Shown here: in pieces, positions 2,731-17,317 of the stretch
Layout: every line of letters begins with the position of its first letter
How positions within the stretch are numbered: position 1 is the first letter of the stretch
Virus genome (UHGV): UHGV-0244087
Length of the DNA: 24,829 nucleotides
DNA from: a virus
Direction: 5' to 3' (one strand)
The notes under the pieces: model-generated
The model's database searches: none
Told to the model about the DNA's origin: nothing
Seen by the model: only the letters and a program-made list of their open reading frames with translations
Translations under genes and position numbers: made by a program

Positions 2731-3081
2731 TTACTCCCTCAGCGTGATGGTTAACTCAACATTCTGCATGGTCTGCATGACAGTGCCCGACAGCGTCACC
2801 CCGGCGCGGCCTCCCGCTTTCCAGACAACGTCGATGGCGTCCAGGGCAATGCGGGGTTCCCATCGTGTCAGCGCAATCACGGCAGCACTCATGCATTGCA
2901 GACGCGTGGTGTTATTCATGGGTTCGTCAATCAAATCAGGTACAAGGCTGCCATATTCCCGTCGCATAACCCGGCTGGCCAGCGGGGTGGTCAGGATGTC
3001 CCTGGCTGACTGTTTCAGGTGCTCCATATCATTCAGGTTTCCCGTCCCGTCCGGATTCATTCCTGTGTAGCGGGTTGTCAC
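2731..3081 (-). CDS. W: Baseplate protein W (gp25-like)
   Basis: 116 aa; N-terminus MTTRYTGMN resembles recalled P2 gpW MTARYLGMN. GTG start overlaps the V stop. Confidence 0.9.
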   Translation of the reverse strand: MTTRYTGMNPDGTGNLNDMEHLKQSARDILTTPLASRVMRREYGSLVPDLIDEPMNNTTRLQCMSAAVIALTRWEPRIALDAIDVVWKAGGRAGVTLSGTVMQTMQNVELTITLRE

Positions 3082-3659
3082 TGCGGGCCTCCTGTCGAAT
3101 CGCTGCCGCCTTTCACACCACCGTGTTTATGCGTATGCACTGTGATGCCGTTTGAGGTGAAGTTGCCGCCGCTGTGCGTGATATTGCCGCTCATCTTTCC
3201 CCCTTTTGTGACGTCAAGCGTCGCTGTTCTCAGAAGGTTTGTGCATTCCACGACGGGCGTATCCAGTGTCACGCTGACGGATGCCTGCAGGGTGGCTGTT
3301 TTCATGCCGCTGGCGCTCAGTGCGCCAGCGTCTGCGTCGTAGCGGAACACCGCGCCATCCGGCGCGCTGACCACGATTTCTTTCAGGCTTTTGCCGGGGG
3401 CCGGACTGGCATCACTCCACAGGCTGCCAATTATCATGGCGGTTTCCGGGTTGCCGCCAATGCAGGCAATTACCACCTGTTCGCCTGGTGATGGCGGCAG
3501 CCACACATTGAAGGCTCCCGCGCGCGTGGTGTTCCAGCGCAACCAGCCTGTTTCCAGTTCGCCGCTGCGAACGCGCACGCGCCAGGACTTCTCATCAACT
3601 TCAGAGATGATCCCGGTGCGGATGATGTTGCTCAGCAGTCGCATGAGTTCTGCGCTCAC
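3078..3659 (-). CDS. V: Baseplate spike/hub protein V
   Basis: 193 aa; NIIRTGII..GEQVV..THKH motifs resemble recalled P2 gpV. Start is uncertain: GTG at 3659 overlapping the upstream stop, or ATG at 3644. Confidence 0.85.
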   Translation of the reverse strand: MSAELMRLLSNIIRTGIISEVDEKSWRVRVRSGELETGWLRWNTTRAGAFNVWLPPSPGEQVVIACIGGNPETAMIIGSLWSDASPAPGKSLKEIVVSAPDGAVFRYDADAGALSASGMKTATLQASVSVTLDTPVVECTNLLRTATLDVTKGGKMSGNITHSGGNFTSNGITVHTHKHGGVKGGSDSTGGPQ

Positions 3660-4291
3660 CGTACAGCCTCCGCAATCCGGCCCAGCACCGTGTTATAAAT
3701 CAGGCGCTCATCTGCCTGGCTGATACCCAACAGCTCACGTACCGGGTAATCGGTGAAAATGCCCGGCGCAACCTGATCGCGCTCACCGAACTGATGAACG
3801 CGTGCAATACGTGCGGCCACGCCGCTGTAACCCACCGTCACACCGGAGGCATCTGCACGGGCTTTCAGGTAGCGGGCGGTGCGCAGTTTTACGAACATGG
3901 GGACGCGCTTTGTGCTGTCCTGGTTGATGCGCCGGGTGCGTATTTCCAGAAAACGGTCGATGTCATCCCGGTAAAACGTGCGGATATTGTTTTTATCCTC
4001 ATCCCACCCGGTAATGGTTCGCCCGTATTTCCCCGTGTCGTGATGCCAGTTTTTCAGCGTGCGTGCTTCGTTATTCCAGATAAAGCGAATGCGCTCCTGT
4101 ATCCGGGTTACGCGGCGTCTGCGTGGTGTCCATTCGGTCCCGTCCGGCGCTTTTTGTGACCGGATACGCGCCTGCTGGGCGCGACGTAAATCCTGTGCCA
4201 GCTTTCTGGCGATGTTATTGATGGCCTGCTGATTCAGGCTGTCGCGGATAGCCTCAAAGGTTTCATCCACGCTGGTGAATGCCTTATCCAT
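3656..4291 (-). CDS. Phage virion morphogenesis (tail completion) protein at the P2 S position
   Basis: Sits between R and V as in P2. Start is uncertain: ATG at 4291 or GTG at 4300. Does not match the recalled P2 gpS sequence closely, so the family assignment is tentative. Confidence 0.7.
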   Translation of the reverse strand: MDKAFTSVDETFEAIRDSLNQQAINNIARKLAQDLRRAQQARIRSQKAPDGTEWTPRRRRVTRIQERIRFIWNNEARTLKNWHHDTGKYGRTITGWDEDKNNIRTFYRDDIDRFLEIRTRRINQDSTKRVPMFVKLRTARYLKARADASGVTVGYSGVAARIARVHQFGERDQVAPGIFTDYPVRELLGISQADERLIYNTVLGRIAEAVR

Positions 4292-4751
4292 CGCTTTCAC
4301 CCCACGTCACATCCTGGAATACATGCGACCAGTCGCCTTCGGAAGAAGGCAGACGGGGTTTTGGCTCCGGCAGGTGTTCTGCCTGCGGTGTGCCCTGACT
4401 GTTGCGCGTGATGCGAACGCGTTCCCGCAGGGGGAGCGTAAACAGGAGATCGGCGCTGTCATCGTCATTGATAACGGCAGAAAATTTGATGTCCTGATTA
4501 CGCTCCGGATTGAGCAACAACTGTGGCTGATTTTCGGATAACCACGCCAGCAGCGGCAGCGTGAGGTCGTCCAGCTCTCCGGCGTAATCCATGACAAACA
4601 TCACCATCTGATAGCGGTAAACAAACGAGGGCGCTTCTCCGGTCGTTTCAATGTTGCCGCTCTCCACGAAAATGGTGAATTTCTCGGGATTAGCCTGGCA
4701 CCACCGACACCCATGAAGCATGGACTCTCGCAGACTGTTTGTCTTAAGCAT
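4284..4751 (-). CDS. R: Tail completion protein R (P2 gpR-like)
   Basis: 155 aa, same length as P2 gpR; ATG start; immediately upstream of the S-position gene. Confidence 0.85.
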   Translation of the reverse strand: MLKTNSLRESMLHGCRWCQANPEKFTIFVESGNIETTGEAPSFVYRYQMVMFVMDYAGELDDLTLPLLAWLSENQPQLLLNPERNQDIKFSAVINDDDSADLLFTLPLRERVRITRNSQGTPQAEHLPEPKPRLPSSEGDWSHVFQDVTWGESDG

Positions 4752-4774
4752 CTGTTTTGCTCTCCTGCTCTTCC

Positions 4775-6655
4775 TTATGCTGCGGGATTATTGATTTCCA
4801 GCACCAGGCTGCCGATATCGACGCCGTACGCGGCATTTTTAGTGATATCAGTTAACGTCAGCGCATTCAGCCCCAGTGTCAGACTGTCTTTTATGACCTG
4901 GAATGCCGGGCCAGCCACTCCATTCAGTTTCGGAGTAACCGTGGCACTGCCGGCGGTGAACACCAGCTCCAGCGTCTGCCAGTCGTTACTGTAATTCCCG
5001 AACTCGCCCAACTTTGTGTTTCCGGCTTTCTTGTGATGCATCAGATTCAGTTTGCCGTCTGTGGTCTGGGTGAAGAACGACATCAGGAACGGGTTACCAG
5101 TCCCGGTCATCGCCACGACGTCAGGTAACGCTACATCGGTATACAGATAAATTCCCAGACCGAACTGGTTGTTGGTCAGTGCGCCTGACAGTCGAAACTT
5201 ACAGCTCAGTCTGCCACCCCGTGTCAGCAGGGAGACTGCGTCATCCACCGGATGCATCAGGGACCAGGTTTTATTGCTCTGCTTGGTAACCTTAAACACA
5301 CCATCTTCCAGCGCAACACTGCCGCCGGTGATGGTCCAGCCCTGCGCAGCAGCCTCTCCGGCTGTCGGCAGCAGGGAGACTGTACGAACGGATGTGTCAC
5401 CATCAGACGGCCCCGATGGAGTGTCGCCGCCGGGCGAGGGTTTAATCTCCGGTGCGGTACCGCTGATGAAGGCGCTGGTTCGACCAACTGCGTTCAGAAT
5501 AGCGGTTGCCAGGCGATCCGAAATAATGCTCCTGCGCGCCCATGAACTGAAATGTGTCGGACGATTTGACGATACCCAATTACCATTACTACGGGATTGC
5601 GCGCCGTAATAACCTGCATCAGCAATATCCGGGTCTTCTGCCGGTAAGTTGGTGGGCGTGTTGTTGCCGTTACCGTCGGTCATGAACGGCACAAAGAAAA
5701 CGTTGTCGCTCTCCCTGTTTTTGTACGCGCCGTAGACGGAGTCATACTGTGTGCCGTATGTGTTTTTCCAGTAATACGTCGTGTCGCCACAAATCCACGG
5801 TACAACTGCAGCACTGCCGCCATGGCACTGCGCGTTAAATCCGGAAAGGTCAGTACGGAACTGCTTCAGCATGGCCGTGAACAGGTCCGGTTGCTGTGCG
5901 TAGGTGGCAGCGCTCATGTCAAATTCGCCCTGCATCCAGCACACCGCCAGCAACACATTTTTCGGGTTCTTCTGTAATGCAGCTTTAGTGCGCGCAATCA
6001 GGTCCTGATATAACGGTTTACCCACACCCCAGCGCGCCGAATCCTGGCTGGCCCCCGTGGTCGTACTGAATGTTCCCTCCGCGCCCTGAGTGAATGCCGA
6101 ACCACCACGGCAGCATGGTACCAGCAGGATCCCCGCGTTATTCGGGATATACGGGAGCAGTTTTTTGGCAATATGTAAGCCCTGGCCGACACAGCCGTAC
6201 TGCCCTTTGCTCAGGTCTGCCTTCGGATGATTCAGTGCGCTCATATCCTGAACATCATGCAGGCAGTGGTCTGCCGGAATGATGTCGTTAAATGCGCATG
6301 CTTTACCACCGGGAGTCACTGTGTTGCGACGGGCCAGTTGCTTAATGCGTGGGTGGGGCGCATCGTAAGAATCCGGCAGCGGCATTCCATCACCATATGA
6401 CATGGCATTGGATTGACCAGCAAGTACCACCACGTAATACCACTCCGGCACGCTGCCGTGCTGGGGGGAATCAGGTGAGATGTCTGTAGTGCCATCGGCC
6501 ACCATTGCCTGCATTAGATACCACGGGGTGCCGGGTTCGTAGGCAACCCGCGTCTCCCCCTGAAGATGCCACCCTTTCGCAAGATGTTCATTCACCTTTT
6601 GAGTCAGTTCAGCCTGTGTCATGGCTGTAATCAGTGCAAAGTTCTTACTGGTCAT
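4775..6655 (-). CDS. NanS-p-like prophage esterase: N-terminal DUF1737-type domain, central sialate O-acetylesterase (SGNH/SASA) domain, C-terminal lectin-like domain
   Basis: 626 aa. N-terminus MTSKNFALITAMTQAELTQKVNEHLAKGW; esterase motif WYYVVVLAGQSNAMSYGDG. Start ATG overlaps the LysC stop, and the gene ends 23 nt before R, so it sits inside the late operon. Confidence 0.8.
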   Translation of the reverse strand: MTSKNFALITAMTQAELTQKVNEHLAKGWHLQGETRVAYEPGTPWYLMQAMVADGTTDISPDSPQHGSVPEWYYVVVLAGQSNAMSYGDGMPLPDSYDAPHPRIKQLARRNTVTPGGKACAFNDIIPADHCLHDVQDMSALNHPKADLSKGQYGCVGQGLHIAKKLLPYIPNNAGILLVPCCRGGSAFTQGAEGTFSTTTGASQDSARWGVGKPLYQDLIARTKAALQKNPKNVLLAVCWMQGEFDMSAATYAQQPDLFTAMLKQFRTDLSGFNAQCHGGSAAVVPWICGDTTYYWKNTYGTQYDSVYGAYKNRESDNVFFVPFMTDGNGNNTPTNLPAEDPDIADAGYYGAQSRSNGNWVSSNRPTHFSSWARRSIISDRLATAILNAVGRTSAFISGTAPEIKPSPGGDTPSGPSDGDTSVRTVSLLPTAGEAAAQGWTITGGSVALEDGVFKVTKQSNKTWSLMHPVDDAVSLLTRGGRLSCKFRLSGALTNNQFGLGIYLYTDVALPDVVAMTGTGNPFLMSFFTQTTDGKLNLMHHKKAGNTKLGEFGNYSNDWQTLELVFTAGSATVTPKLNGVAGPAFQVIKDSLTLGLNALTLTDITKNAAYGVDIGSLVLEINNPAA

Positions 6656-6933
6656 TGTGTTACTCCCGTCTGGTGTGTCAGTTCGGCTATTCTCTTATCC
6701 AGTTCAGCAATGGCCCGTTTATCCGCGTTACAGGTTTCCAGTGCATCCAGAAGGCGGTCGCCCCATATTCCGAGGTTTCCCCATGTGGGTGGGTCAGGGA
6801 AGGGGGGAGGCGTTACCGGCATGGTCAGCGTCTGCGGTATAAGCCGGACTGACGGCGCTGGCCCTGGCGCGTTCTGCGTGCCTGCGCAACCTGTCAGTAA
6901 AACGAGCGTCAGGCAAAGCGTGGGCGCATTCAT
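6652..6933 (-). CDS. lysC: Outer-membrane spanin lipoprotein (LysC / Rz1-like)
   Basis: 93 aa starting MNAPTLCLTLVLLTGCAG (signal peptide plus lipobox), proline-rich. Begins inside lysB in another frame and extends past it, as in P2 lysB/lysC. Confidence 0.8.
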   Translation of the reverse strand: MNAPTLCLTLVLLTGCAGTQNAPGPAPSVRLIPQTLTMPVTPPPFPDPPTWGNLGIWGDRLLDALETCNADKRAIAELDKRIAELTHQTGVTQ

Positions 6934-7189
6934 CTTTTGCAATATCGTTGCGTAGCTGTTCACGTCTTACCTCTCCGTCCTGATTGCGTTGCTGATTTTC
7001 CGCGCGGAGCTGAGCCAGCACCTGCTGCATATCCTGTACCCCGGCGCTGATGATATTCAGTGTGTCGACGGTACTTTTCAGGGTGCTGGCCTGCGCTTCG
7101 TTTCTGGCGTTCTCCCGGCCCAGCGACCACGACAGACGCATGGATGTAATCAGAAGGAAAGCGACGCCAAGCGTGGGCCAGAGCTTCAT
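6794..7189 (-). CDS. lysB: Inner-membrane spanin (LysB / Rz-like)
   Basis: 131 aa; N-terminal transmembrane segment WPTLGVAFLLITSM followed by a charged coiled-coil region. ATG overlaps the endolysin stop. Confidence 0.8.
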   Translation of the reverse strand: MKLWPTLGVAFLLITSMRLSWSLGRENARNEAQASTLKSTVDTLNIISAGVQDMQQVLAQLRAENQQRNQDGEVRREQLRNDIAKDECAHALPDARFTDRLRRHAERARASAVSPAYTADADHAGNASPLP

Positions 7190-7578
7190 GCCGGATAGGC
7201 TCCGTGTGGTAACTGAAAATGCGGTCCGTCTTTCAGGGTCTTCCAGTCGCCGCCCCATTCCACCGGAATATTCAGTTCCTGGCTGGCCTGTCTGAATGCT
7301 GCTGCGATTTTTTCGTACAGCGGCCATTCCCATGACACCTGGTTGCCGACATAAGCCACAACATCCACGGCATGCCCTGTGAGATGGCGACTGTTCATGG
7401 TCTGGCTCTTGCCTGTGGTCACGAGCTGCTTCTGACGATAACGACTGCGCAATCCTTCGGTGATACCAAAATCCACTTCCGAAATTTCCAGTGCCCGTCG
7501 GGTCACTTTCACCAGATCAGGATTTACGCCCTGCAAATTCTTTTCGCTCCGGCTGCTGAATTTAAATGTGTTGCTCAT
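7186..7578 (-). CDS. Endolysin, peptidase M15 family (L-alanyl-D-glutamate peptidase, T5-endolysin-like)
   Basis: 130 aa; MSNTFKFSSRSEKNLQGVNPDLVKVTRRALEIS resembles the recalled T5 endolysin N-terminus, with an SRH...G.AVD zinc-site pattern. Sits between the holin and the spanins. Confidence 0.8.
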   Translation of the reverse strand: MSNTFKFSSRSEKNLQGVNPDLVKVTRRALEISEVDFGITEGLRSRYRQKQLVTTGKSQTMNSRHLTGHAVDVVAYVGNQVSWEWPLYEKIAAAFRQASQELNIPVEWGGDWKTLKDGPHFQLPHGAYPA

Positions 7579-7898
7579 TCGTCCTTCTCCTTCACCCTGC
7601 GATTAAAGGCCGCAATAACCTTGTCGCGTACTTTCTCTGCCCCCATAAAACCGATTGATGCGCCGATAAACGTTACGGCATCTTCAGGAAACCCGAAGAA
7701 GCGCAACGACCCGGCCACGGCCATGGCAAGAACGCCGCACGCCAGCGATCCCGTTACGGTCTGAACCAGTGTTCGTCCGTCATAAAGACTCATCAGCGCG
7801 GAAATGCTGACCGCCGCGCCTACTGCATAAACCGTTGGCAGGTGGTCAAAGAGCCACGCAATAACCTGCTCTGTGATCCCTGTTTGAATGGTGCTCAC
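7575..7898 (-). CDS. Holin (three predicted transmembrane segments)
   Basis: GTG start at 7896-7898 preceded by a GGGGGGAG ribosome-binding site, 2 nt after the X stop. Three hydrophobic segments and a charged C-terminus. The track ORF 7575..8117 is over-extended into X. Confidence 0.7.
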   Translation of the reverse strand: MSTIQTGITEQVIAWLFDHLPTVYAVGAAVSISALMSLYDGRTLVQTVTGSLACGVLAMAVAGSLRFFGFPEDAVTFIGASIGFMGAEKVRDKVIAAFNRRVKEKDE

Positions 7899-7900
7899 TG

Positions 7901-8101
7901 CTACTCCCCCCACAACTGAATCATTTCTCGTTTCTTCTTCTCCGGCTCCGGCATCTCCACTTCCTGCCCGGCGTCCAGAAATACCTGCTGACAGAGTCCG
8001 GGGTTGGCATCCAGCACCTTTTCGGTGACGCCCTGCGTCGTGCCGTAGTACCGGAAACAGAGCGAATCCACGGTGTCGTCTTCCAGTGCCTTCACTTTCA
8101 T
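7901..8101 (-). CDS. X: Tail protein X (P2 gpX-like)
   Basis: 66 aa starting MKVKALEDDTVDSLCFRYYG, close to the 67-aa size of P2 gpX. ATG overlaps the L stop by 1 nt. Confidence 0.85.
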   Translation of the reverse strand: MKVKALEDDTVDSLCFRYYGTTQGVTEKVLDANPGLCQQVFLDAGQEVEMPEPEKKKREMIQLWGE

Positions 8102-8595
8102 CAGCACAACTCCGCAAAGATTCGCGGGCGGCACAGAATGTCAGAGATGGCCCAGCTCACATCGCGCCACAAATCCGATGTCTGTATATCCAGTGCGTCC
8201 GCCCGGCGATCGCCCTTGTCCGTTGTGTCCGCATCGCGGTAACGCTCCAGAATCAGGGCACGTGTGGCGGTATAAACAGCATTGCGCCAGTGCCAGAGAT
8301 TGACGCTTTCTCCGTTAATTACGGGTGCCGGAACATCGGCCAGCGTCTGATGGCCAGCCGCCTGCTGTTCCTGCTGCCACGCTTCCAGTTCGCGGGTAAC
8401 GTGAGCCACGGCCCCAGTGGCGGTATGCAGCAGGCGGGAGGTGGTCACGCGGCCCGGCAGTCGTACCGCCAGACGCAGCTCGCGCAGCACAATATCCGGC
8501 CAGAATGCACCTGCTGAAATGCGAGTGTCGCCATCATCGGTATCGGTGATGTCGTCCTCTGCGGGTCCTGGTTCAGTTCTGGCAACCATACTCAT
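8101..8595 (-). CDS. L: Head completion/stabilisation protein L
   Basis: About 164 aa, between M and X. Start set at ATG 8593-8595, which has an AGGAG ribosome-binding site; the track start at 8604 is a GTG without one. Confidence 0.85.
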   Translation of the reverse strand: MSMVARTEPGPAEDDITDTDDGDTRISAGAFWPDIVLRELRLAVRLPGRVTTSRLLHTATGAVAHVTRELEAWQQEQQAAGHQTLADVPAPVINGESVNLWHWRNAVYTATRALILERYRDADTTDKGDRRADALDIQTSDLWRDVSWAISDILCRPRIFAELC

Positions 8596-8699
8596 GGAGT
8601 TCACTCCTGAAAAAAAAATCGGGCGGTGGGTGCGCGGTGTAAACGGTCACGGAGTCAAACCGGAACACCGCGCACGCCGCCCGCTGACGGGGTCAGTCG

Positions 8700-9500
8700 T
8701 TAACCGCGCTTCGCCTTCTGCGACGCGGTGATTTTTCGTGTTGCAGGCTTCTGCGTTGTCTTTTTACTTTTGCTGCTTTCGTCCTGCGTCTGCTGTGCGC
8801 TGGCGTCTTCTGGTGCGGCTGCGGAATCGGCTTTTTTCAGGGCGCGGGAAAGGGTTGCAATCTCGCGTTTCACACCTGCGTTCGGGTTCAGGTGCATCGC
8901 TTCGCGCAGCAGCTTCAGTGATGAGGCCATGTTGTCTGCATCGGTCAGGCCACGACGGGCAAAGGCACACGCCTTGCATAATTTGGCGCGCACTTCGTCC
9001 GGCATGTCCTGGTTGGCGACAATTTCCCAAAGTGTGTCCAGTGGTTCGATAAAGGCGGATAAATCCGCGTCGGCATCCGTCCCGGCCTGCGTCAGTACCG
9101 GGTTGCAGATTTCTTCGGTCAGTACCGTGGCAGCAGTACGGCCAAAGTTATCCGGCATGATGAGGTTGTGACGGACCACATATGCACCAATACGCAGCGC
9201 CAGCGGAAGATCGCCGCAGTCAATCGCCCACACCATCAGCGTGGCAATCACTTCATCCTGCTGCCCGCCGTCAGCTTCCAGCGTTCCCTCAATCCAGCCG
9301 GAAAAATCCGGCAACAACTCTTTTTTGATGGCGGCTTTCGCGCTTCTGGCCTGTACGCCCTTTAGCCTGGCCTGTGCCAGACGCAGACGATACAGCACCT
9401 CTTCATGCGCGGTACGCGCGGCGTGGTCCACACCTTCATTCGCCCGGCCTGCGCGCTGTGCCATCACGTTCAGCCAGTGTTGTTGTGCAGGAGTAATCAT
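8700..9500 (-). CDS. M: Terminase endonuclease (small) subunit M
   Basis: 266 aa; ATG with GGAGAG ribosome-binding site; position between N and L as in P2. Confidence 0.85.
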   Translation of the reverse strand: MITPAQQHWLNVMAQRAGRANEGVDHAARTAHEEVLYRLRLAQARLKGVQARSAKAAIKKELLPDFSGWIEGTLEADGGQQDEVIATLMVWAIDCGDLPLALRIGAYVVRHNLIMPDNFGRTAATVLTEEICNPVLTQAGTDADADLSAFIEPLDTLWEIVANQDMPDEVRAKLCKACAFARRGLTDADNMASSLKLLREAMHLNPNAGVKREIATLSRALKKADSAAAPEDASAQQTQDESSKSKKTTQKPATRKITASQKAKRG

Positions 9501-9545
9501 TTTTTCTCTCCGTTACAGGCGGGCATGATGCCCGCCGTGAGTTGA

Positions 9546-10598
9546 TTAGCTGTCGGCGAACTTCAGGCCAGTGATCATCGCGCACTTGCCATAGTCTTCA
9601 ACGACATAAGCGTCATTGATGGACTGGTAGGTGGCGATGCGGTTGTATTCCGGCTCGTCTTTCATCAGGCGACGCATTGAACCTTTCTGCCAGTAAATCG
9701 ACAGGTTGTTGAACGAGGTGATAAGCATCGTTGCATCCGGGAAGAACGGCGCAAGGAACACGCCCAGCCCGCCAATGGTGCGCGATGACAGGATGAGCTG
9801 CCCGGCAAGTAATTCCGCATTGGGATTCTGGCCGCTGATGCTGTTCAGCACGGGCAGACGCAGCGAGTTAAACAGGTTGCGCCCCATAATCACCGCGAGG
9901 TCGTCAGCTTCCTTGTGCCATTCATCCAGCAGGGATGAGCGCGCATCCTGTACCAGAGCATCGGCATTCGCATACTTACCCGCGTGCGCCACAGTGTTGT
10001 CCATGTTGCGGGAGGTCAGCGTCACGTCATTCATTACGCGCTCGCTGGCATCGGTTCTGATGTGCTCCAGCCAGCCCACGTTAACGTCCTGAAGCAGCTT
10101 GTTGGTGTGAAAATCAGACTCGTAGGCGTGGGATGTGCCGTTAAAGCCAATCATGATGCGATCAAGCGCTACCTGCCGGGCGATCTGTGTACTGATACGG
10201 GACTGAAAATCGCTGTGGGCCGCCCAGGTATCAAGCTGTGGGTACGAAATAAAGGTATCGTAGTTCACCTGTTCGCACTGGTACTGACGAGACTTCATAT
10301 CGATCACGTTATTCGGGTTACGGCGTTTGATGCCGTCATAACTGCTATTCGTGCGCGCAATTGGCCCGGTGGTGTCCAGGAGGATTTTTTCGCCTTTCTG
10401 GTCGGTCACGCCGATCACGTTAATTCTTTTCGTAAATTCGGTACTTTCCTTTGAGGCGTTTTCAAAACGCTGCTGCACCGCGGGTTCCACGGTAAATCGC
10501 GATACCAGTGCAGATACCGGGATATTGTTAAGCGACGCCTGCTGCGCCATATAGCAACCCAGCTTGTTGCGGGTAATATCTGACATCACCAGATTCAT
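9546..10598 (-). CDS. N: Major capsid protein N
   Basis: 350 aa; FTVEP, IMIGFNG, DATMLITSFNNLSIY and YVVEDY motifs resemble recalled P2 gpN. Confidence 0.9.
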   Translation of the reverse strand: MNLVMSDITRNKLGCYMAQQASLNNIPVSALVSRFTVEPAVQQRFENASKESTEFTKRINVIGVTDQKGEKILLDTTGPIARTNSSYDGIKRRNPNNVIDMKSRQYQCEQVNYDTFISYPQLDTWAAHSDFQSRISTQIARQVALDRIMIGFNGTSHAYESDFHTNKLLQDVNVGWLEHIRTDASERVMNDVTLTSRNMDNTVAHAGKYANADALVQDARSSLLDEWHKEADDLAVIMGRNLFNSLRLPVLNSISGQNPNAELLAGQLILSSRTIGGLGVFLAPFFPDATMLITSFNNLSIYWQKGSMRRLMKDEPEYNRIATYQSINDAYVVEDYGKCAMITGLKFADS

Positions 10599-10621
10599 AA
10601 AAAATTTGCTCCTTTGTCTTA

Positions 10622-11458
10622 TCAGAAGTCAGCCAGCTGGTCGGAGGCTGCGCCCGTTGCGGTGAAGCGGTTCTGCGGATCGCCGTCCTGCGTGCGCAGT
10701 TTTTCCTTCAGTGCTGTCAGCTCTGTGGTCAGTGACGTGATTTTCTGACGGTCCTGCTTATGGCGGGCTTCCAGCACATTAAAACGGTCGATAATGTCGG
10801 CCTGTGACGTTGCGACGCCTTCCACCGCTTCCTGAATACGGGAAAAACTGGCGTCATCCGCTTTGCGGCCACGGCCAATAATCCCCATTACGCGGTTAAC
10901 CCACTGGGTGCCTTCTTCCTGGCGTTGTTCTGCCATTTCGATGATTTCAGACTCAATGGCTTCGGAGATAAGCGGCGCTTCACCCTGGATACTGTTGAAC
11001 GTCATCACCGCCTGACGTTGCTGTGCCGTGAATTTCAGGCGCTCAGTGCCCAGGCTTGCCGGGGTGTCGGTCATCGCCAGCCCGACCAGATAGGCGCGCC
11101 CGTTAACGGAGAACTGCGGGTGCAGTTCGATACTGGAATAGATTTTCTTGCCGTCCGCGACAAGCTGCTTCATGCGCTCGGTCGGTTCGATTTCTGCATA
11201 CAGCGCAGTACGTCCGGCCAGCGGACCTTCCGTAATGTCTTCCGTACTCAGTGCGGTGACATCGCCCATTGCGGAAAATTCGCTTGACGGGCATGGCGAG
11301 AGATAGTGCTCAACGTTCACGCGGGCAGCGTAAACATCCGGGTTGAAGTTCTCGGCGGCTTCACGCAGATGCACCGGACTGATTTCACGGCCATCAACAG
11401 TTGATCCGGAGACAGCCACGCGAAACTTTTTGCGGGATGTCTTTTTTTCATTAGCCAT
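10622..11458 (-). CDS. O: Capsid scaffolding protein O
   Basis: Start set at the internal ATG 11456-11458 (MANEKKTSRKKFRVAVSGSTVDGR) with a GAGGGG ribosome-binding site; resembles the recalled P2 gpO N-terminus. Confidence 0.85.
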   Translation of the reverse strand: MANEKKTSRKKFRVAVSGSTVDGREISPVHLREAAENFNPDVYAARVNVEHYLSPCPSSEFSAMGDVTALSTEDITEGPLAGRTALYAEIEPTERMKQLVADGKKIYSSIELHPQFSVNGRAYLVGLAMTDTPASLGTERLKFTAQQRQAVMTFNSIQGEAPLISEAIESEIIEMAEQRQEEGTQWVNRVMGIIGRGRKADDASFSRIQEAVEGVATSQADIIDRFNVLEARHKQDRQKITSLTTELTALKEKLRTQDGDPQNRFTATGAASDQLADF

Positions 11459-11612
11459 AGTTTTTGCCCCTCTGACTGGTTCTTCAGTCATGATGGCAAA
11501 GCGTAACAGGCTGATACAAAGGGCTTTTGTTGTAAGAAAACGGCCAGAACAGGGGGTTAAGGAGAACAGTTTCGCGCGCGGGTAATCTTCCTGTAATTAC
11601 TCAGGGGGAGCA
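11459..11612. promoter_or_regulatory. Divergent intergenic region between O (minus) and P (plus); expected site of late promoters
   Basis: Gene arrangement only. No Ogr-type TGT-N12-ACA dyad could be placed confidently by eye. Confidence 0.4.
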
Positions 11613-13364
11613 ATGATTCAGGACGCTTTTGTGCGCCAGCGTGCGCGGCAACTTTACTGGCAGGGTTATCCGCCCGCAGAAATATCACGTCTGATGGGAA
11701 TAAACCCGAACACGATTTATGCGTGGAAAAAACGCGACCAGTGGGATGAAACGCCACCCGTGCAGCGTGTCACGCAGTCCATCGATGCGCGCCTCATCCA
11801 GCTTACTGAAAAACAGAATAAAACAGGCGGTGACTTTAAGGAAATAGACCTGCTGACCCGGCAGCTTAAAAAACTGCATGATGGCCAGCCGGATGCGACG
11901 GCCACAGGAAAGAAAGGCCGGGCGAAAAAACTCAAAAATCATTTCACGCCGGAACAGATTGCCGCACTGCGGGAAAAAATCATCAGCAGGCTGGAGTGGC
12001 ATCAGCGGGGCTGGTTTGACTCCCTGACCCTTTGCAGGGAAGCCGGGATACGTAACAGGATGATCCTGAAATCCCGACAGATTGGCGCGACCTGGTATTT
12101 TGCACAGGAAGCACTGCTGATGGCGCTGCGTGACGATGTGGCGCAACCTTACCAGCGTAACCAGATTTTTTTGTCTGCGTCGCGTCGTCAGGCGTTCCAG
12201 TTTAAAAGCATTATTCAGAAGGCCGCGGCTGAAGTTGATGTGGAGCTGAAAGGGGGCGATAAAATCATCCTCTCCAACGGCGCAGAGCTGCATTTTCTCG
12301 GCACTTCTGCTGCGTCGGCGCAGTCCTATACGGGCAATTTTTATTTTGATGAATTTTTCTGGGTCAGTCGCTTTGCTGAACTGCGCAAGGTGGCTGGCGC
12401 TATGGCAACCCTCAGCGGACTGCGGCGCACCTACTTCTCCACGCCATCCACCGAAACGCACGAGGCATACGCCTACTGGAACGGCGACCGCTGGAACGAG
12501 AAAAAGGCCACGCATAAACGCCAGCGTTTTTCTGTGGACTGGAAAACGCTGCATAACGGGCTTATCTGCCCTGACCGGACGTGGCGGCAAATTGTCACGC
12601 TGGAAGATGTGGTTAATCACGGCTGGAAACACACCGATATTGATGAAATTCGTGATGAAAACACCGAAGACGAGTTCCTCAATCTCTATATGTGTGAGTT
12701 TGTCCGCGAAGGGGAATCGGCATTTAACCTGAATATCCTGATTGGCTGTGGTGTTGACGGATACGACGACTGGAAAGACTGGAAACCTTTTGCTCCCCGC
12801 CCGATGGGGAATCGTCCGGTATGGATTGGGTATGACGCAAACGGCAGCAGTGGCAACGGCGACAGCGGCGCTGTGTCCGTGGTGGTTCCTCCGTCTGTTC
12901 CTGGTGGCCGTTTTCGAACGGTGGAGACGCGACGCGTTCAGGGGCTGGAGTTTGAAGAACAGGCCAGAGTCATTGAAGAGTTCACGTGTCGCTACAACGT
13001 GGAACACATCGGCATTGATGTGACGGGCGGGAACGGGGAGGCTGTTTATCAGATAGTGAAACGGTTTTTCCCTGCTGCTATTCCGTACACCTTCACGCTG
13101 TCATCAAAACGGTCGCTGGTACTGAAAATGCTGCAAATAATGCGTGCCGGGCGGTGGGAATACGATCGCGCCGAACGCGAGCTGGTCGCAGCCTTTAACG
13201 CCGTGCGTAAGGTGAAAACACCGGGCGGCTTTATCACTTACGAAACGGACCGCGCGAGGGGGATCAGCCACGGCGACCTTGCGTGGGCAACCATGCTTGC
13301 TGTCATTAACGAACCAATTGGCGGCGAAGGAGAAAACGAGCGTTTCACAGTTATGGAGTTCTGA
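11613..13364 (+). CDS. P: Terminase ATPase (large) subunit P
   Basis: 583 aa, close to the 590-aa size of P2 gpP; AGGGGGAG ribosome-binding site; followed by Q with a TGATG overlap. Confidence 0.9.
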   Translation: MIQDAFVRQRARQLYWQGYPPAEISRLMGINPNTIYAWKKRDQWDETPPVQRVTQSIDARLIQLTEKQNKTGGDFKEIDLLTRQLKKLHDGQPDATATGKKGRAKKLKNHFTPEQIAALREKIISRLEWHQRGWFDSLTLCREAGIRNRMILKSRQIGATWYFAQEALLMALRDDVAQPYQRNQIFLSASRRQAFQFKSIIQKAAAEVDVELKGGDKIILSNGAELHFLGTSAASAQSYTGNFYFDEFFWVSRFAELRKVAGAMATLSGLRRTYFSTPSTETHEAYAYWNGDRWNEKKATHKRQRFSVDWKTLHNGLICPDRTWRQIVTLEDVVNHGWKHTDIDEIRDENTEDEFLNLYMCEFVREGESAFNLNILIGCGVDGYDDWKDWKPFAPRPMGNRPVWIGYDANGSSGNGDSGAVSVVVPPSVPGGRFRTVETRRVQGLEFEEQARVIEEFTCRYNVEHIGIDVTGGNGEAVYQIVKRFFPAAIPYTFTLSSKRSLVLKMLQIMRAGRWEYDRAERELVAAFNAVRKVKTPGGFITYETDRARGISHGDLAWATMLAVINEPIGGEGENERFTVMEF

Positions 13365-14410
13365 TGAGCAGAAAAAATAAAAAAGTGCGCATGAGTTCAC
13401 GCATTGATCTCGCTGATGCGCTCAGGAAAGAATCATCGCTCAGTGCATTCACATTTGATGGTCCTTATCGCCTGACCGGGCATGACCTGCTGGACAATAT
13501 GTACTGTGCTGATAACGGGCGGTGGTATGAAACCCCGGTGGACTGGTACGGTCTGGCAAGAGCAGCCCGGCAAACGTCCTGGCATCAGTCTGCGCTTTAC
13601 TTTAAGCGCAATGTATTACTCGGTTGCTACATCCCGCACCCGCTGCTTTCCCGGCAGGATTTCTCGGCGCTGGCGCTGGACTGGTTTGTGTTCGGTAACG
13701 CATTCCTTGAGCTTCGAAGCAATATGCTCGGCGAACCGCTTAAATTACGGCACGCCCTGGCGAAATACATGCGACGCGGAAGCGATCTTGAATCATGGTG
13801 GTATGTGCAGGATGGCAAGGACGCGTTTCAGTTTCGTCCTGGCAAAGTGTGCCACCTGATGAATCCGGATATTAACCAGGAAATCTACGGCATGCCGGAA
13901 TATCTTGGCGCATTACTCTCGGCCAGCCTTTCTCATTCGGCGGACATGTTCAGAAAACTGTACTACGACAACGGATCCCACGCCGGGTGCATCATCTACA
14001 TCGGTGCAGCGCAGGTAAACCGCGAAAGCATGGACTCCCTGAAAGAAACGCTACAGGGGGCACGTGGTGGTGGTGCGTTTAAAAACGTGCTCATTCATGC
14101 GCCCAACGGGGGCAAAGAGGGGGTGCAAATTTTGCCGTTCCAGCAGATCACCGCAAAAGATGAATTCATGAATGTTAAGGCGGCATCCCGTGATGATGTG
14201 CTGGCTGCGCACCGCGTTCCGCCGCAACTGATGGGGGCGATGCCGGGCGAAAAAAGTGCGTTTGGCGATGTGGAGAAGGCAGCGCGGGTTTACGCAATTA
14301 ACGAGCTGATGCCCGTCATGGAGGCTATGAAGCACATCAATGACTGGCTTGGCGAAGAGGTGATCCGTTTTAACTCTTATGCTCTTCTTGATGAAAAAAC
14401 AGCCCCGTGA
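13364..14410 (+). CDS. Q: Portal protein Q
   Basis: 348 aa; FTFDGP..WYETPV..GLAR resembles recalled P2 gpQ; sits downstream of P. Confidence 0.9.
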   Translation: MSRKNKKVRMSSRIDLADALRKESSLSAFTFDGPYRLTGHDLLDNMYCADNGRWYETPVDWYGLARAARQTSWHQSALYFKRNVLLGCYIPHPLLSRQDFSALALDWFVFGNAFLELRSNMLGEPLKLRHALAKYMRRGSDLESWWYVQDGKDAFQFRPGKVCHLMNPDINQEIYGMPEYLGALLSASLSHSADMFRKLYYDNGSHAGCIIYIGAAQVNRESMDSLKETLQGARGGGAFKNVLIHAPNGGKEGVQILPFQQITAKDEFMNVKAASRDDVLAAHRVPPQLMGAMPGEKSAFGDVEKAARVYAINELMPVMEAMKHINDWLGEEVIRFNSYALLDEKTAP

Positions 14411-14420
14411 TGGGGCTGTC
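14399..14420. terminator. Bidirectional intrinsic terminator between convergent Q and the 174-aa gene
   Basis: Perfect hairpin cagcccc-gtgat-ggggctg (14400-14418), flanked by an A-run upstream and a T-run downstream. Confidence 0.75.
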
Positions 14421-14424
14421 CTTT

Positions 14425-14949
14425 TTACCAGAGTTGAACCATTTTCTGGGTGCCGTCAGGCTTGAGATTATCAATTTCAGAGAGAACGTAATATTGAATG
14501 GCTTCACAAACGGTGGTGTAGGGTGAATTACCTTCTTTAAGTGGCACGATATTATTATTAACGCGAACCTGTATTTCATCGTTATACATTGCGATCGAAA
14601 CAGGCGTGTGCACGAACGCGACTTCGCCAGGTGTGTCGTCAACCACCGTTTCAATACTAAAAGTCAGTTTTCGCTCATCATTGCTGCCCCGTGCTTTGGG
14701 GGTAGCGGCAGGGATCTGGGATAAAGGCATTCTGCGAAATCCTTCGGCTGCTTCCAGTCCGCATGAAACGTAATGCTGGCGATTACCGTCGCTATCTGTC
14801 CAGGTCTGTGATGGCAGCTCCAGCGAGATTTCATAAGCATCAACAATGCCCTGGGCAAGGCGTACAAGCGGGGTCAGATCTTCATTGCGGCGAAAGCTCT
14901 CCTTTACCTGCTCCCGTTTTTCTCTTAACTGCTTGTAATTAATGACCAT
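14425..14949 (-). CDS. Hypothetical 174-aa protein, orphan cargo convergent with portal
   Basis: ATG at 14947-14949 with a GGAGG ribosome-binding site 8 nt upstream. No family recognised. Confidence 0.65.
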   Translation of the reverse strand: MVINYKQLREKREQVKESFRRNEDLTPLVRLAQGIVDAYEISLELPSQTWTDSDGNRQHYVSCGLEAAEGFRRMPLSQIPAATPKARGSNDERKLTFSIETVVDDTPGEVAFVHTPVSIAMYNDEIQVRVNNNIVPLKEGNSPYTTVCEAIQYYVLSEIDNLKPDGTQKMVQLW

Positions 14950-15048
14950 AAGACAGCCTCCATTGATTTCTTTGCTCGTATTTTGCACTTATGAAGTATG
15001 GTCGGCAAGGTGCCGTATCGCTGACGCGCTTCGCTTGTCTGCTGCTTC

Positions 15049-15077
15049 GCCGGGGCATAAAAAATTTATGCCCCGGC
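15049..15077. repeat. Perfect 29-bp palindrome in the non-coding stretch upstream of the 174-aa gene
   Basis: gccggggcat-aaaaaattt-atgccccggc, 10-bp arms extendable to 13 bp through the A/T loop. No U-tract follows on either strand. Confidence 0.7.
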
Positions 15078-15448
15078 TCTCCAGCTCCTGTATCAATCAG
15101 ATAATTTCACGACGCCTTCCAGTTTATCGCCACCATCGACGGTCAGACTCTTACGCAATTCCACCGCGTTGACTGTATGTTCTCGCTGCCTCAGTGCGAT
15201 TTTGACGGCCTTACCTTTCACCCCATCAAATCAAAAGCCCTCACGCCTTTTTCATGCTCAGCGTGAGAAATATGGCCATTCTGTTGTGTCTCTGCGACAT
15301 CGTTCAGGGAATGCTATTTACCCCCTGAAACGCGGGCTGTTCCCCCGTCACCTGCGCGCAGAAAAAGCGCGTTTTTTTGTGCACGCACGGATCCTTGACG
15401 GATCCAGCCGCCATGCGGGCCGGAAGGGTAAAAAGTCGTTCAAAAAAA

Positions 15449-15478
15449 TTGTGCAAATTTGTGCACTTTTGTGCAAAC
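15449..15478. repeat. Three tandem 10-bp iterons (TTGTGCA core)
   Basis: ttgtgcaaat, ttgtgcactt, ttgtgcaaac in direct succession; a fourth ttgtgca core lies at 15377-15383. Confidence 0.7.
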
Positions 15479-15480
15479 AA

Positions 15481-15505
15481 AAAGCGCCCCTGAGGCGCTT
15501 TAGTG
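15481..15505 (-). terminator. Intrinsic terminator ending the minus-strand cargo operon
   Basis: Hairpin agcgcc-cctga-ggcgct followed on the minus strand by a T-rich run (ttttgtttg); lies about 30 nt after the stop of the 87-aa gene. Confidence 0.65.
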
Positions 15506-15535
15506 TTTTATAGGTTGTGTATATTTGCTGGGTCC

Positions 15536-15799
15536 TTATCCTGCTGTGCTTTCAACTGATGAGGGGAACAAAATCTTTTCATCAAACCCTGCATTCATAT
15601 CATGGACAGCAACACACCAATCCATTGACGAACGATTATCAAGAGCCTCCATGATTTCATCCATGCGGCGCAGGTCATACAGGTAAATGCTTTTATCGCC
15701 AATGGTGTAAAAACCAATTTTTTTCGGTGATGGACAGCGATCAAGAACGTCCTGTAATTCGCTCAACCATGCTTGTTCTTTTTTTGTCAAAGTTGCCAT
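15536..15799 (-). CDS. Hypothetical 87-aa protein, fourth gene of the cargo operon
   Basis: ATG with an AAGGAGAG ribosome-binding site that is embedded in the last codons of the upstream gene. No family recognised. Confidence 0.6.
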   Translation of the reverse strand: MATLTKKEQAWLSELQDVLDRCPSPKKIGFYTIGDKSIYLYDLRRMDEIMEALDNRSSMDWCVAVHDMNAGFDEKILFPSSVESTAG

Positions 15800-15800
15800 A

Positions 15801-16292: not shown

Positions 16293-16294
16293 TC

Positions 16295-16609
16295 TCACTC
16301 TCCTTTGATGCCAATGTTTACAGACTGGCAAGCCTCTTTGAGCACCCAGTCAACAGCGTCTTTCCATGCTCCGGTTTCGACTGGCGGATTCTCACGCTTT
16401 ACCTGTTCATAGAAATGTACTGCTCTAACCAGTCCATCTGACGGTTTTGCCTGTAGTGCAGCCTGAGCTATGCGGTATGCCTGGAGCATACGGGCGTCGT
16501 TGATATCCATTCCGAACGGAATTTCTGATGATTGTGACTCTGCATCTTCAAGCCTGGCAATTTCTTTACGTAAGAAGTATTTCAACTCTTGTTTCTGTTT
16601 TCTGTTCAT
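16295..16609 (-). CDS. Hypothetical 104-aa helical protein, second gene of the cargo operon
   Basis: ATG overlaps the stop of the upstream gene (ATGA). C-terminus ...NIGIKGE parallels the ...GIRIKGE end of the next protein. Confidence 0.6.
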
Positions 16610-16938: not shown

Positions 16939-16972
16939 TGTGTCCCCCTTGTTTATGCTCCCGGGTTAAAGT

Positions 16973-16996
16973 CATCAGGGCGGATGCGCCCTGATG
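16973..16996. other. Perfect 10-bp-stem hairpin between parR and the zinc-binding-domain gene
   Basis: catcagggcg-gatg-cgccctgatg. No U-tract follows on the minus strand, so it is unlikely to be a simple terminator. Confidence 0.6.
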
Positions 16997-17001
16997 TTGT
17001 G

Positions 17002-17313: not shown

Positions 17314-17317
17314 TGGT

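What the first reader, a model, noticed from the sequence alone, without database searches (positions are those of the whole stretch)
4775..6655. NanS-p-like sialate O-acetylesterase moron inside the late lysis and tail operon
A 626-aa protein with a sialate-O-acetylesterase catalytic motif (GQSNA) and a C-terminal lectin-like domain sits between the spanins and R, overlapping the LysC stop. It would therefore be made late and released at lysis. This matches the family described from lambdoid Stx prophages of enterohaemorrhagic E. coli, which deacetylates mucin-derived sialic acid; here it is carried by a P2-like element instead.
Basis: partly seen in the sequence, partly recalled or inferred. 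Interest (0 to 1): 0.55.

Follow-up and report, generated by a model that had tools for sequence, protein, structure and literature searches.

The report
Sialic-acid esterase gene in P2-like prophage
This is an intact gene of the known phage NanS-p family (enzymes that strip acetyl groups from gut-mucus sialic acid), carried by a common P2-like E. coli prophage and differing from the Shiga-toxin-phage versions mainly in its small N-terminal domain.

Summary
A 626-aa ORF lies at 4775-6655 on the minus strand. Its ATG overlaps the LysC stop (ATGA), and it ends 23 nt before gene R.

Pfam finds DUF1737, SASA and DUF6645, all above cut-off. The core matches the E. coli NanS structure 3PT5 (E=1e-122) with all four active-site blocks. 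The C-terminus matches the NanS-p lectin-like domain 6YP6 (E=4e-30).

The element is a P88-like (Xuanwuvirus) prophage. P88 itself is the empty site, with 99 bp where this window has 2,004 bp.

It is not rare. Of 5,426 complete E. coli genomes, 376 carry the filled junction and 689 the empty one. Carriers include O104:H4 C227-11.

Codons 1-70 (DUF1737) are only 31-35% identical to lambdoid alleles and were found only in P2-like prophages (30 of 30 viral contigs, always between lysC and R). The esterase and lectin parts are 84-100% identical to lambdoid alleles.

A 2026 preprint reports that DUF1737 is the capsid-binding domain in phage phi24B. Display on the virion is therefore an open possibility here.

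Verdict: a new member of a known family, of modest interest.

The parts
4775..6655 (-). nanS-p-like CDS, 626 aa plus stop (three domains: DUF1737, SASA, DUF6645)
   Evidence: ORF. Pfam hits. phrog_143 over the full length. 79% identity to the yjhS/SASA esterase genes of Stx1a phages and phage 434.
6497..6646 (-). DUF1737 domain (aa 4-53), 'P2-class'. The wider P2-only segment is nt 1-210 of the gene (about 6446-6655).
   Evidence: PF08410 at 30.5 bits against a cut-off of 24. 31-35% identity to lambdoid alleles, 95-100% among P88-like alleles and 55% to the divergent P2-like lineage. No DNA homology to lambdoid alleles. tblastn against 50,697 phage records finds it only in 3 P2-like records (two classified as Peduoviridae, one P88-like).
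5492..6451 (-). NanS-like SGNH/SASA catalytic domain (aa 69-388). Nucleophile Ser82 is the codon at 6410-6412 and base His368 the codon at 5552-5554.
   Evidence: Matches 3PT5 NanS at E=1.4e-122 over aa 69-388. Blocks GQSNA 80-84, RGGSAF 183-188, MQGEFD 241-246 and HFS 368-370 correspond to the 3PT5 blocks listed in PMC10792757.
4778..5365 (-). C-terminal lectin-like jelly-roll domain (aa 431-626; Pfam DUF6645 covers aa 477-587)
   Evidence: Matches 6YP6 'NanS-p' at E=4e-30 over aa 431-623. PF20350 at 70 bits. 97% identical to a lambdoid E. albertii allele.
6652..6667 (-). 5' junction: GGGAG Shine-Dalgarno (6663-6667), 7-nt spacer, then ATGA where the lysC stop overlaps the nanS-p start (6652-6655)
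   Evidence: Sequence read.
4752..4774 (-). 23-nt spacer between the nanS-p stop and the ATG of gene R. It holds R's AGGAGA Shine-Dalgarno (4761-4766) and no terminator.
4704..6707 (-). 2,004-bp segment that replaces 99 bp of phage P88. It consists of a divergent 5' end of R, the spacer, nanS-p, and a divergent 3' end of lysC.
   Evidence: blastn against P88 (L004): homology runs 3600-4703 (97.3%) and 6708-8200 (96.3%).
6652..6963 (-). lysC (Rz1-like o-spanin, lipobox LLTGC). The real start is probably the Met codon at 6933.
   Evidence: PF23793 at 50.8 bits. Translation. RefSeq annotation of near-identical loci.
6794..7201 (-). lysB-type i-spanin (DUF2570)
   Evidence: phrog_214 Rz-like spanin. 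RefSeq annotation.
7186..7578 (-). M15 peptidase endolysin
   Evidence: PF13539 and phrog_465.
7575..7898 (-). holin
   Evidence: PF05106 and phrog_126. Length taken from RefSeq.
4284..4751 (-). gene R (tail completion), immediately downstream
   Evidence: PF06891 at 132 bits.
3656..4291 (-). gene S (virion morphogenesis / tail completion)
   Evidence: PF05069. RefSeq annotation.

Best explanation
The gene encodes a functional member of the phage NanS-p family of sialate O-acetylesterases, carried by a P88-like (Xuanwuvirus, P2-like) temperate phage of E. coli.

Shown: it sits with no terminator or promoter of its own between lysC and R. By synteny with P2 this is the Ogr-dependent late operon O-N-M-L-X-holin-endolysin-lysB/C-R-S. 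Its start codon overlaps the lysC stop. The protein has no signal peptide or membrane segment. It keeps the NanS Ser-His catalytic machinery and the NanS-p lectin-like C-terminal domain.

Inferred: it is made only after prophage induction, together with the lysis and tail proteins. It accumulates in the cytoplasm and reaches the gut lumen when the cell lyses, either free or attached to virions. There it removes 7/8/9-O-acetyl groups from mucin sialic acids such as Neu5,9Ac2. That makes them cleavable by sialidases and usable by surviving sibling lysogens through the NanATEK pathway.

Evolution: the gene is a long-standing resident of P2-like phages. It has its own class of N-terminal DUF1737 domain. 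Its esterase and lectin modules are repeatedly overwritten by recombination with lambdoid nanS-p copies in the same genomes.
For: Domain architecture: DUF1737, SASA and DUF6645 all score above Pfam cut-offs.

Catalytic core: 3PT5 NanS at E=1e-122 and 6YP6 NanS-p C-terminal domain at E=4e-30. All four NanS active-site blocks are conserved.

Relatives: 79% identity to annotated 9-O-acetyl-Neu5Ac deacetylase genes of Stx1a phages. NanS-p alleles of EDL933 and O104:H4 are reported to be active esterases that support growth on Neu5,9Ac2 (review PMC8065619). A 99.5%-identical allele sits in the same P2-like slot in O104:H4 C227-11.

Operon embedding: the ATGA overlap, 23-nt spacer and absence of any minus-strand terminator or credible promoter come. 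There is no hydrophobic segment (maximum 19-aa hydropathy 1.27).

Empty site in P88 and relatives.

Mosaicism.

Persistence in P2-like phages: all 30 IMG/VR loci with this N-terminus are P2-like with the gene between LysC and R. They include a lineage whose backbone proteins are only 46-70% identical.
Against: No enzyme assay or expression data exist for this allele. I could not confirm that the P2-borne copy was among the five O104:H4 alleles tested, because Saile 2018 is not held.

The gene is dispensable. 689 genomes have the empty junction against 376 filled. Four of the 30 IMG/VR copies have a premature stop in the reading frame.

About 93% of E. coli already carry chromosomal nanCMS (PMC10088187), so the added benefit to the host is unclear.

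The phi24B preprint indicates the homologue is a processed capsid-decoration protein. 'Freely released public good' may therefore be incomplete.

The P2-type late promoter was not identified by sequence. Upstream of gene O there is only a TGT-N15-ACA dyad, not the P2 consensus TGT-N12-ACA (the consensus is from my own knowledge).
Confidence: 0.8

Rival explanations
1. Virion-displayed enzyme. The P2-class DUF1737 domain docks the protein onto hexamers of the P2-type (GpN, T=7) capsid, as the lambdoid-class domain does on the T=9 capsid of phi24B. The esterase and lectin domains would then let virions bind or move through O-acetylated mucus. This overlaps with the best explanation rather than excluding it.
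For: The preprint 10.64898/2026.04.10.717836 reports a DUF1737 hexamer bound to the central hexon, with a Tyr42 'tooth'.

Here DUF1737 falls into two discrete classes that follow the phage backbone. The P2 class carries a 4-residue insertion immediately before the aligned aromatic residue (TPY in lambdoid alleles, EPGTPWY here).

The class persists at 55% identity in a P2-like lineage whose own proteins have diverged to 46-70%.

The gene is co-expressed with head and tail genes.
Against: Phage 434 has a lambda-type head module (E-like major capsid protein plus D). It still carries a lambdoid-class DUF1737 that is 82-88% identical to those of Stx1a, Stx2a and E. albertii alleles. Domain class therefore does not track capsid type among lambdoids.

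The link between backbone and N-domain is also what recombination mechanics alone would produce. There is no DNA homology 5' of nt 211, so crossovers cannot replace the N-domain.

A T=7 capsid has no hexon on the threefold axis, which is the flat site used in phi24B.

A third of otherwise near-identical prophages carry the gene and two thirds do not.
Confidence: 0.22
2. The substrate is bacterial rather than host-derived. The enzyme would de-O-acetylate sialic-acid-containing or other O-acetylated surface polysaccharides of E. coli, such as the K1 capsule or O-antigens. This would help adsorption, or stop progeny from being trapped on lysed-cell debris.
For: The review PMC8065619 raises this idea for NanS-p. 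The gene is expressed with virion genes. The lectin-like domain could target a polysaccharide.
Against: Reported activities of family members are on Neu5,9Ac2 and mucin glycans. The catalytic domain is 88% identical to alleles in phages with different receptors and tail types. The gene is optional within one phage lineage that keeps the same tail genes.
Confidence: 0.08
3. A recent one-step transfer of a complete nanS-p cassette from a Stx or lambdoid prophage into a P2-like genome. This is the origin implied by the first reader's phrase 'carried by a P2-like element instead'.
For: The SASA and C-terminal domains are 84-97% identical to lambdoid alleles. Nt 1201-1740 are 98-100% identical to an E. 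albertii lambdoid allele.
Against: The first 210 nt have no DNA homology to any lambdoid allele, and homology ends at the stop codon.

The P2-class N-domain also occurs in a deeply diverged P2-like lineage. There the whole protein is only 53% identical, yet it sits in the same lysC-R slot.

GC content matches the flanks: 55.1% against about 57%.

The segment that differs from P88 includes divergent but homologous ends of R and lysC. That points to exchange between P2-like phages.
Confidence: 0.05

Closest known systems
NanS-p esterases of Stx and other lambdoid prophages (933W L0105/z1466; phi24B vb_24B_21/gp84; the phage 434 SASA esterase; 'yjhS' of Stx1a phages)
   Same: The three-domain architecture is the same: DUF1737, SASA, lectin-like C-terminal domain. 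Identity to the 434/Stx1a type is 88% in the esterase domain and 84-85% in the C-terminal domain. Both are prophage-borne, sit beside the lysis genes, and are expressed late.
   Different: The N-terminal DUF1737 is only 31-35% identical and has a 4-aa loop insertion plus a longer linker.

The carrier is a P2-like myovirus, so control would be by an Ogr-type activator rather than Q antitermination.

The gene lies downstream of the spanins and is translationally coupled to lysC. In lambdoid phages it lies between stx/Q and the holin and is flanked by terminators.
Chromosomal NanS (YjhS) of E. coli, PDB 3PT5
   Same: Same SGNH-like catalytic fold and the same active-site blocks: GQSNA, RGGSAF, MQGEFD and (S/T)HFS. 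E=1e-122 over aa 69-388.
   Different: NanS is a single domain of about 326 aa, encoded in the nanCMS operon of the sialoregulon. It lacks both DUF1737 and the lectin-like domain. It is about 57% identical.
Phage P88 and other Xuanwuvirus members (Peduoviridae) with the empty site
   Same: Same backbone at 96-97% DNA identity on both sides, and the same lysis cassette: holin, M15 endolysin, LysB and LysC.
   Different: In P88, lysC and R are separated by an 18-nt spacer. Here 2,004 bp replace 99 bp.
phi24B gp84 as a capsid decoration protein (bioRxiv 10.64898/2026.04.10.717836)
   Same: Homologous domain architecture. The aromatic residue is conserved at the position of the 'tooth'.
   Different: The capsid type differs (P2-type T=7 against T=9) and so does the DUF1737 class. 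Virion association has not been tested here.

Membership tests
NanS-p (phage-borne sialate O-acetylesterase) | Catalytic SASA/SGNH domain homologous to NanS, with the Ser nucleophile (GQSNA) and His base | tested here: met
   PF03629 at 49 bits against a cut-off of 24.8. 3PT5 at E=1.4e-122. S82 and H368 plus blocks II and III are conserved.
NanS-p (phage-borne sialate O-acetylesterase) | N-terminal DUF1737 domain | tested here: met
   PF08410 at 30.5 bits against a cut-off of 24. It is a divergent class, 31-35% identical to lambdoid alleles.
NanS-p (phage-borne sialate O-acetylesterase) | C-terminal lectin-like jelly-roll domain (the 6YP6 type) | tested here: met
   6YP6 at E=4e-30 over aa 431-623. 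PF20350 DUF6645 at 70 bits.
NanS-p (phage-borne sialate O-acetylesterase) | Encoded in a prophage late region beside the lysis genes | tested here: met
   The gene lies between lysC and R of a P2-like prophage.
NanS-p (phage-borne sialate O-acetylesterase) | Lambdoid context: downstream of Q (and stx where present), upstream of the holin | tested here: not met
   The carrier is P2-like. Lambdoid comparators do show Q/stx, then nanS-p, then holin. This is a typical context for the family, not a property of the protein.
NanS-p (phage-borne sialate O-acetylesterase) | Esterase activity on Neu5,9Ac2 or O-acetylated mucin glycans | not testable with these tools
   Reported for family members (PMC8065619), but not for this allele.
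Moron (Hendrix sense) | Extra DNA between two genes that are adjacent in close relatives | tested here: met
   In P88, lysC and R are adjacent. 2,004 bp here correspond to 99 bp there. Across complete E. coli genomes there are 689 empty and 376 filled junctions.
Moron (Hendrix sense) | Own promoter and terminator, allowing expression from the repressed prophage | tested here: not met
   There is no minus-strand terminator between S and L. The only promoter-like hit has a -10 element that overlaps the ATG, and the number of hits is below the shuffle expectation (2 against 3.9). A consensus scan cannot exclude atypical promoters.
P2-like phage (Peduoviridae, Xuanwuvirus/P88-like) | P2 gene order and hallmark proteins (Q, P, O, N, M, L, X, lysis genes, R, S, V, W, J, I, H; GpA replication endonuclease) | tested here: met
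   Pfam hits for GpR, Phage_tail_S, Phage_GPL and Phage_tail_X. 96-97% DNA identity to P88. RefSeq annotation of a 99.3%-identical prophage.

The most novel reading that the evidence does not exclude
DUF1737 may be a portable capsid adaptor specific to each phage backbone. On this reading the P2-class variant docks the esterase-lectin cargo onto P2-type T=7 capsids. The cargo itself is shared by recombination among myo-, sipho- and podoviral temperate phages of E. coli. P2-like virions would then carry a mucus-modifying enzyme on their heads. NanS-p would be primarily a virion component that helps the phage in mucus, rather than a lysogenic-conversion metabolic gene.
Probability: 0.2. Interest if true: 0.6.

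Novelty: new member of a known kind. Interest (0 to 1): 0.33.

Why it matters
NanS-p esterases are thought to help enterohaemorrhagic E. coli feed on O-acetylated mucin sialic acids.

This analysis shows that the family is not confined to lambdoid or Stx prophages. About 7% of complete E. coli genomes, from commensal, extraintestinal, enteroaggregative/O104:H4 and environmental strains, carry a copy on a P2-like prophage. That copy exchanges its catalytic and lectin modules with Stx-phage copies.

P2-like prophages therefore add to the mobile nanS-p gene pool. Counts of alleles per strain should include them.

The backbone-specific N-terminal domain also offers a simple way to test the recent claim that DUF1737 is a capsid-binding module. 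The natural variants with and without the gene, in a small and well-understood T=7 phage, provide the system for that test.

Tried and rejected
1. A word-indexed protein search with aa 1-71 returned only near-identical fragments and gave no information on origin.

2. An exhaustive phmmer search of aa 1-71 against 1.84 billion representatives gave 10 hits. They were mostly fragments or frameshifted pieces, plus one spurious low-complexity repeat protein. Three stand-alone DUF1737 proteins of 41-47% identity (P0016-P0018) also appeared. No viral-contig context could be found for those three.

3. PDB sequence searches with both DUF1737 classes found no solved structure, only coiled-coil and allophycocyanin noise.

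4. NCBIfam has no model for this protein.

5. I could not read Saile 2016, Saile 2018, Rangarajan 2011 or Rangel 2016. It therefore stays unconfirmed that the P2-borne O104:H4 allele was one of the five tested. C227-11 has 5 nanS-like places at blastn 'distant' sensitivity, but one of them may be chromosomal nanS.

6. I looked for the P2 late-promoter dyad TGT-N12-ACA upstream of gene O and found only TGT-N15-ACA. I do not use it as evidence.

7. The sigma-70-like hit at 6681-6654 is rejected as a promoter for the gene, because its -10 element overlaps the start codon.

8. The idea that DUF1737 class strictly matches capsid type is rejected. Phage 434, with a lambda-type head, shares the lambdoid class with Stx2a-type phages.

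9. Structure prediction was not run. Sequence-level matches to solved structures already settle the folds of the two large domains.
Full report
**Observation**

The window holds an ATG-initiated ORF of 626 codons at 4775-6655 on the minus strand. GQSNA is at residues 80-84. Read on the coding strand, the 5' junction is GACGGGAGTAACACA-ATGA. The ATG at 6655-6653 overlaps the TGA of lysC at 6654-6652, and a GGGAG Shine-Dalgarno lies 7 nt upstream. The TAA stop at 4775-4777 is followed by 23 nt that contain AGGAGA, and then by the ATG of gene R at 4751.

Pfam and PHROGs identify the neighbours:
- GpL head completion protein, 8101-8604
- tail protein X
- holin
- M15 endolysin, 7186-7578
- LysB-type spanin (DUF2570)
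- LysC (PF23793), 6652-6963
- GpR (PF06891), 4284-4751
- GpS, 3656-4300

**What the protein is**

Pfam gives three domains, all above the curated cut-offs: DUF1737 at aa 4-53 (30.5 bits), SASA at aa 75-271 (49.3 bits) and DUF6645 at aa 477-587 (70.1 bits). The protein matches phrog_143 end to end at 1080 bits.

Against solved structures, aa 69-388 align with E. coli NanS/YjhS (3PT5) at E=1.4e-122. Residues 431-623 align with the crystallised C-terminal domain of NanS-p (6YP6) at E=4e-30.

The four active-site blocks tabulated for 3PT5 are GQSNA, RGGSAF, MQGEFD and SHFS, with Ser19 and His301 as the catalytic pair (PMC10792757). All four are present here at 80-84, 183-188, 241-246 and 368-370.

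There is no signal peptide or hydrophobic segment. The maximum 19-residue hydropathy is 1.27.

tblastn finds 353 phage records, mostly Stx-converting phages. The best full-length matches are 79% identical: Stx1a phages, phage 434 and YYZ-2008, several of them annotated as 9-O-acetyl-N-acetylneuraminic acid deacetylase. Identity to the Stx2a/933W type is about 52%.

By sequence, the protein meets every structural criterion of the NanS-p family. According to a review, family members from EDL933 and O104:H4 are active Neu5,9Ac2 esterases that support growth on that sugar and deacetylate mucin glycans (PMC8065619).

**The carrier and the empty site**

The whole window is 99.3% identical to a prophage beside dmsA in E. 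coli DA33135. The flanks of the gene are 96-97% identical to phage P88 (Xuanwuvirus, Peduoviridae) and its relatives.

Homology to P88 stops at window position 4703 and resumes at 6708. The window has 2,004 bp where P88 has 99 bp, and in P88 only 18 nt separate the lysC stop from the R start. The segment that differs includes divergent but alignable ends of R and lysC. This suggests that the cassette moves between P2-like phages by homologous exchange.

GC content of the gene is 55.1%, against about 57% in the flanks.

**Frequency**

A 321-bp probe across the lysC/nanS-p junction is covered at 80% or more in 376 of 5,426 complete E. coli genomes. The equivalent P88 empty-site probe is covered in 689. 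Carriers include the 2011 outbreak lineage O104:H4 (C227-11, 2011C-3493, HUSEC2011). There the allele is 99.5% identical and lies in a P2-like prophage between ihfA and btuC. RefSeq annotates it as 'DUF6645 domain-containing protein'.

Among GTDB species representatives, full-length relatives were found only in Escherichia (E. albertii and Escherichia sp.), both in lambdoid contexts. All other hits were of the short chromosomal NanS type.

**Expression context**

A consensus scan of 3600-11500 finds no terminator-like site on the minus strand between S and L. Only two promoter-like sites turn up, fewer than the 3.9 expected from shuffles. The one near the gene has a -10 hexamer that overlaps the start codon, so it could not drive a full-length product.

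These findings fit a gene embedded in the late operon, which by synteny with P2 is the P_O operon. The tight spacing and the ATGA overlap point the same way. The gene is a moron in the sense of extra DNA but not in the sense of an autonomous unit. The late promoter itself was not identified.

Late synthesis and release at lysis are inferences from this anatomy.

Identity to lambdoid alleles depends strongly on the domain:

| Domain | Residues | Identity to lambdoid alleles |
|---|---|---|
| DUF1737 | aa 1-55 | 31-35% to all lambdoid alleles |
| SASA | aa 69-388 | 82-88% to the 434, Stx1a and E. albertii types |
| C-terminal domain | aa 431-626 | 84-97% to the same types |

Lambdoid DUF1737 domains are 82-100% identical to one another.

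At the DNA level, nt 1-210 have no homology to lambdoid alleles, and homology starts abruptly near nt 211. Nt 1201-1740 are 98-100% identical to a lambdoid E. albertii allele. Homology ends at the stop codon. The terminators annotated downstream of the gene in phage 434 were therefore not imported.

Other P88-like alleles keep the N-terminus at 95-100% identity. Their esterase domains differ by up to 15% and their C-terminal domains by up to 10%, in patches.

The P2-class N-terminus was found only in P2-like contexts:
- tblastn against 50,697 phage records gives three hits, all in P2-like records (two classified as Peduoviridae, one P88-like).
- A scan of IMG/VR gives 30 loci. In every one the gene follows LysC. 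In every locus that extends far enough downstream, R and S follow it.
- Four of those loci (L049-L052) belong to a different P2-like lineage of E. coli, present in 14 complete genomes. Its GpL, R and S are 70%, 58% and 46% identical to those here, and it has a lysozyme-type endolysin. Its 656-aa NanS-p has the same three domains in the same slot. Its DUF1737 is 55% identical to this one and 31-35% to the lambdoid class. Its C-terminal domain is nearer the Stx2a type.

My reading is that nanS-p is an old resident of P2-like phages. Its catalytic and lectin modules are repeatedly homogenised with lambdoid copies in the same cells. Genomes that carry the P2 allele have 3-7 nanS-like places.

**Mechanistic twist and its limits**

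A 2026 preprint on phi24B reports that the NanS-p homologue gp84 is a capsid-decoration protein. A hexamer of the DUF1737 domain plugs the central hexon of each T=9 facet through a Tyr42 'tooth'. The esterase and lectin parts are cleaved off after release.

The P2-class domain has a 4-residue insertion directly before the aligned aromatic position: TPY in lambdoid alleles, EPGTPWY here. A DUF1737 specific to the backbone could therefore be a capsid adaptor matched to the P2-type capsid.

Three findings count against this:
- Phage 434 has a lambda-type head (E-like major capsid protein plus D). It still carries a lambdoid-class DUF1737 that is 82-88% identical to those of Stx1a, Stx2a and E. 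albertii alleles.
- The association is what recombination mechanics alone predict, because there is no homology 5' of nt 211.
- The gene is optional in otherwise near-identical prophages, and four of the 30 IMG/VR copies have a premature stop in the reading frame.

No DUF1737 structure is available in the PDB copy for comparison. I rate virion display at about 0.2.

**Comparison with what is known, and novelty**

The protein is a member of the NanS-p family on all sequence-testable criteria.

It differs from the described lambdoid members in three ways:
- the carrier is a P2-like myovirus, presumably under Ogr-type late control rather than Q antitermination
- the position is after the spanins and coupled to lysC, rather than between Q/stx and the holin
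- the N-terminal domain belongs to a different class

The searchable literature mentions nanS-p in 'non-Stx prophages' (PMC10462455). No paper there links DUF1737 or NanS-p to P2-like phages.

The O104:H4 outbreak strain carries this allele, and five O104:H4 alleles were characterised. The enzyme itself may therefore already have been assayed. I could not verify this.

Verdict: a real, intact and ordinary-looking member of a known family in a less publicised carrier. Interest is modest. It rises only if the capsid-adaptor reading proves true.

Noticed in passing
IMG/VR loci L027, L037, L042, L043 (the gene starts at 10001, 5019, 7182 and 5488 respectively): Some P88-like prophages carry nanS-p copies in which the reading frame from the ATG stops early (218-286 aa). 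tblastn still finds downstream NanS-p sequence in L027 and L043, which suggests frameshifts or internal rearrangements. The gene is evidently dispensable and decays in some lineages.
   Followed up: partly
L049 12050-12322 (minus strand), between the nanS-p stop (11971) and the R start (12373): In the divergent P2-like lineage, about 400 bp separate nanS-p from R. This gap holds a 90-aa ORF on the opposite strand with no Pfam match. The lysC-R slot may accumulate further cargo there.
   Followed up: partly
window 17002-18277 (minus strand): A ParM-like plasmid segregation protein (17318-18277) and a small 'plasmid partitioning/stability' protein (about 17002-17313) lie between the portal/terminase genes and the GpA replication gene. 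This is an actin-type partition module on an integrating P2-like prophage. The names come from RefSeq annotation of a 99.3%-identical locus.
   Followed up: no
window about 14400-17000: A lower-GC stretch (44-50%, against 54% for the whole window) between the portal gene and the ParM module. It holds small minus-strand ORFs that RefSeq annotates as hypothetical, XF1762 family and ClpX C4-type zinc-finger proteins. It is probably an accessory or moron region.
   Followed up: no
window 22219-23049 (minus strand): A 276-aa ORF annotated as an SPFH (stomatin/prohibitin-like) domain protein, in the early region of the prophage. It is absent from the O104:H4 version of this prophage.
   Followed up: no
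L003 (E. coli O104:H4 C227-11), locus 12380-12952 and 2882-5289: The O104:H4 copy of this prophage carries other cargo. A 'serine O-acetyltransferase'-like gene lies between the tail genes and the tail-fibre assembly gene. An ISKpn26 insertion and a DUF3800 gene lie near ogr. An O-acetyltransferase and an O-acetylesterase on one prophage is a curious pairing.
   Followed up: no
window 6654-6681 (minus strand): A sigma-70-like match (CTGACA-16-CACAAT) lies inside the 3' end of lysC. Its -10 element overlaps the nanS-p ATG, so it cannot express the full protein. The scan as a whole gives fewer hits than shuffled sequence.
   Followed up: yes
window 11470-11560 (minus strand), upstream of gene O: The O-P intergenic region has a TGT-N15-ACA dyad, not the TGT-N12-ACA Ogr-box spacing I recall for P2 late promoters. 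P88-like late promoters may differ. This was not pursued.
   Followed up: no
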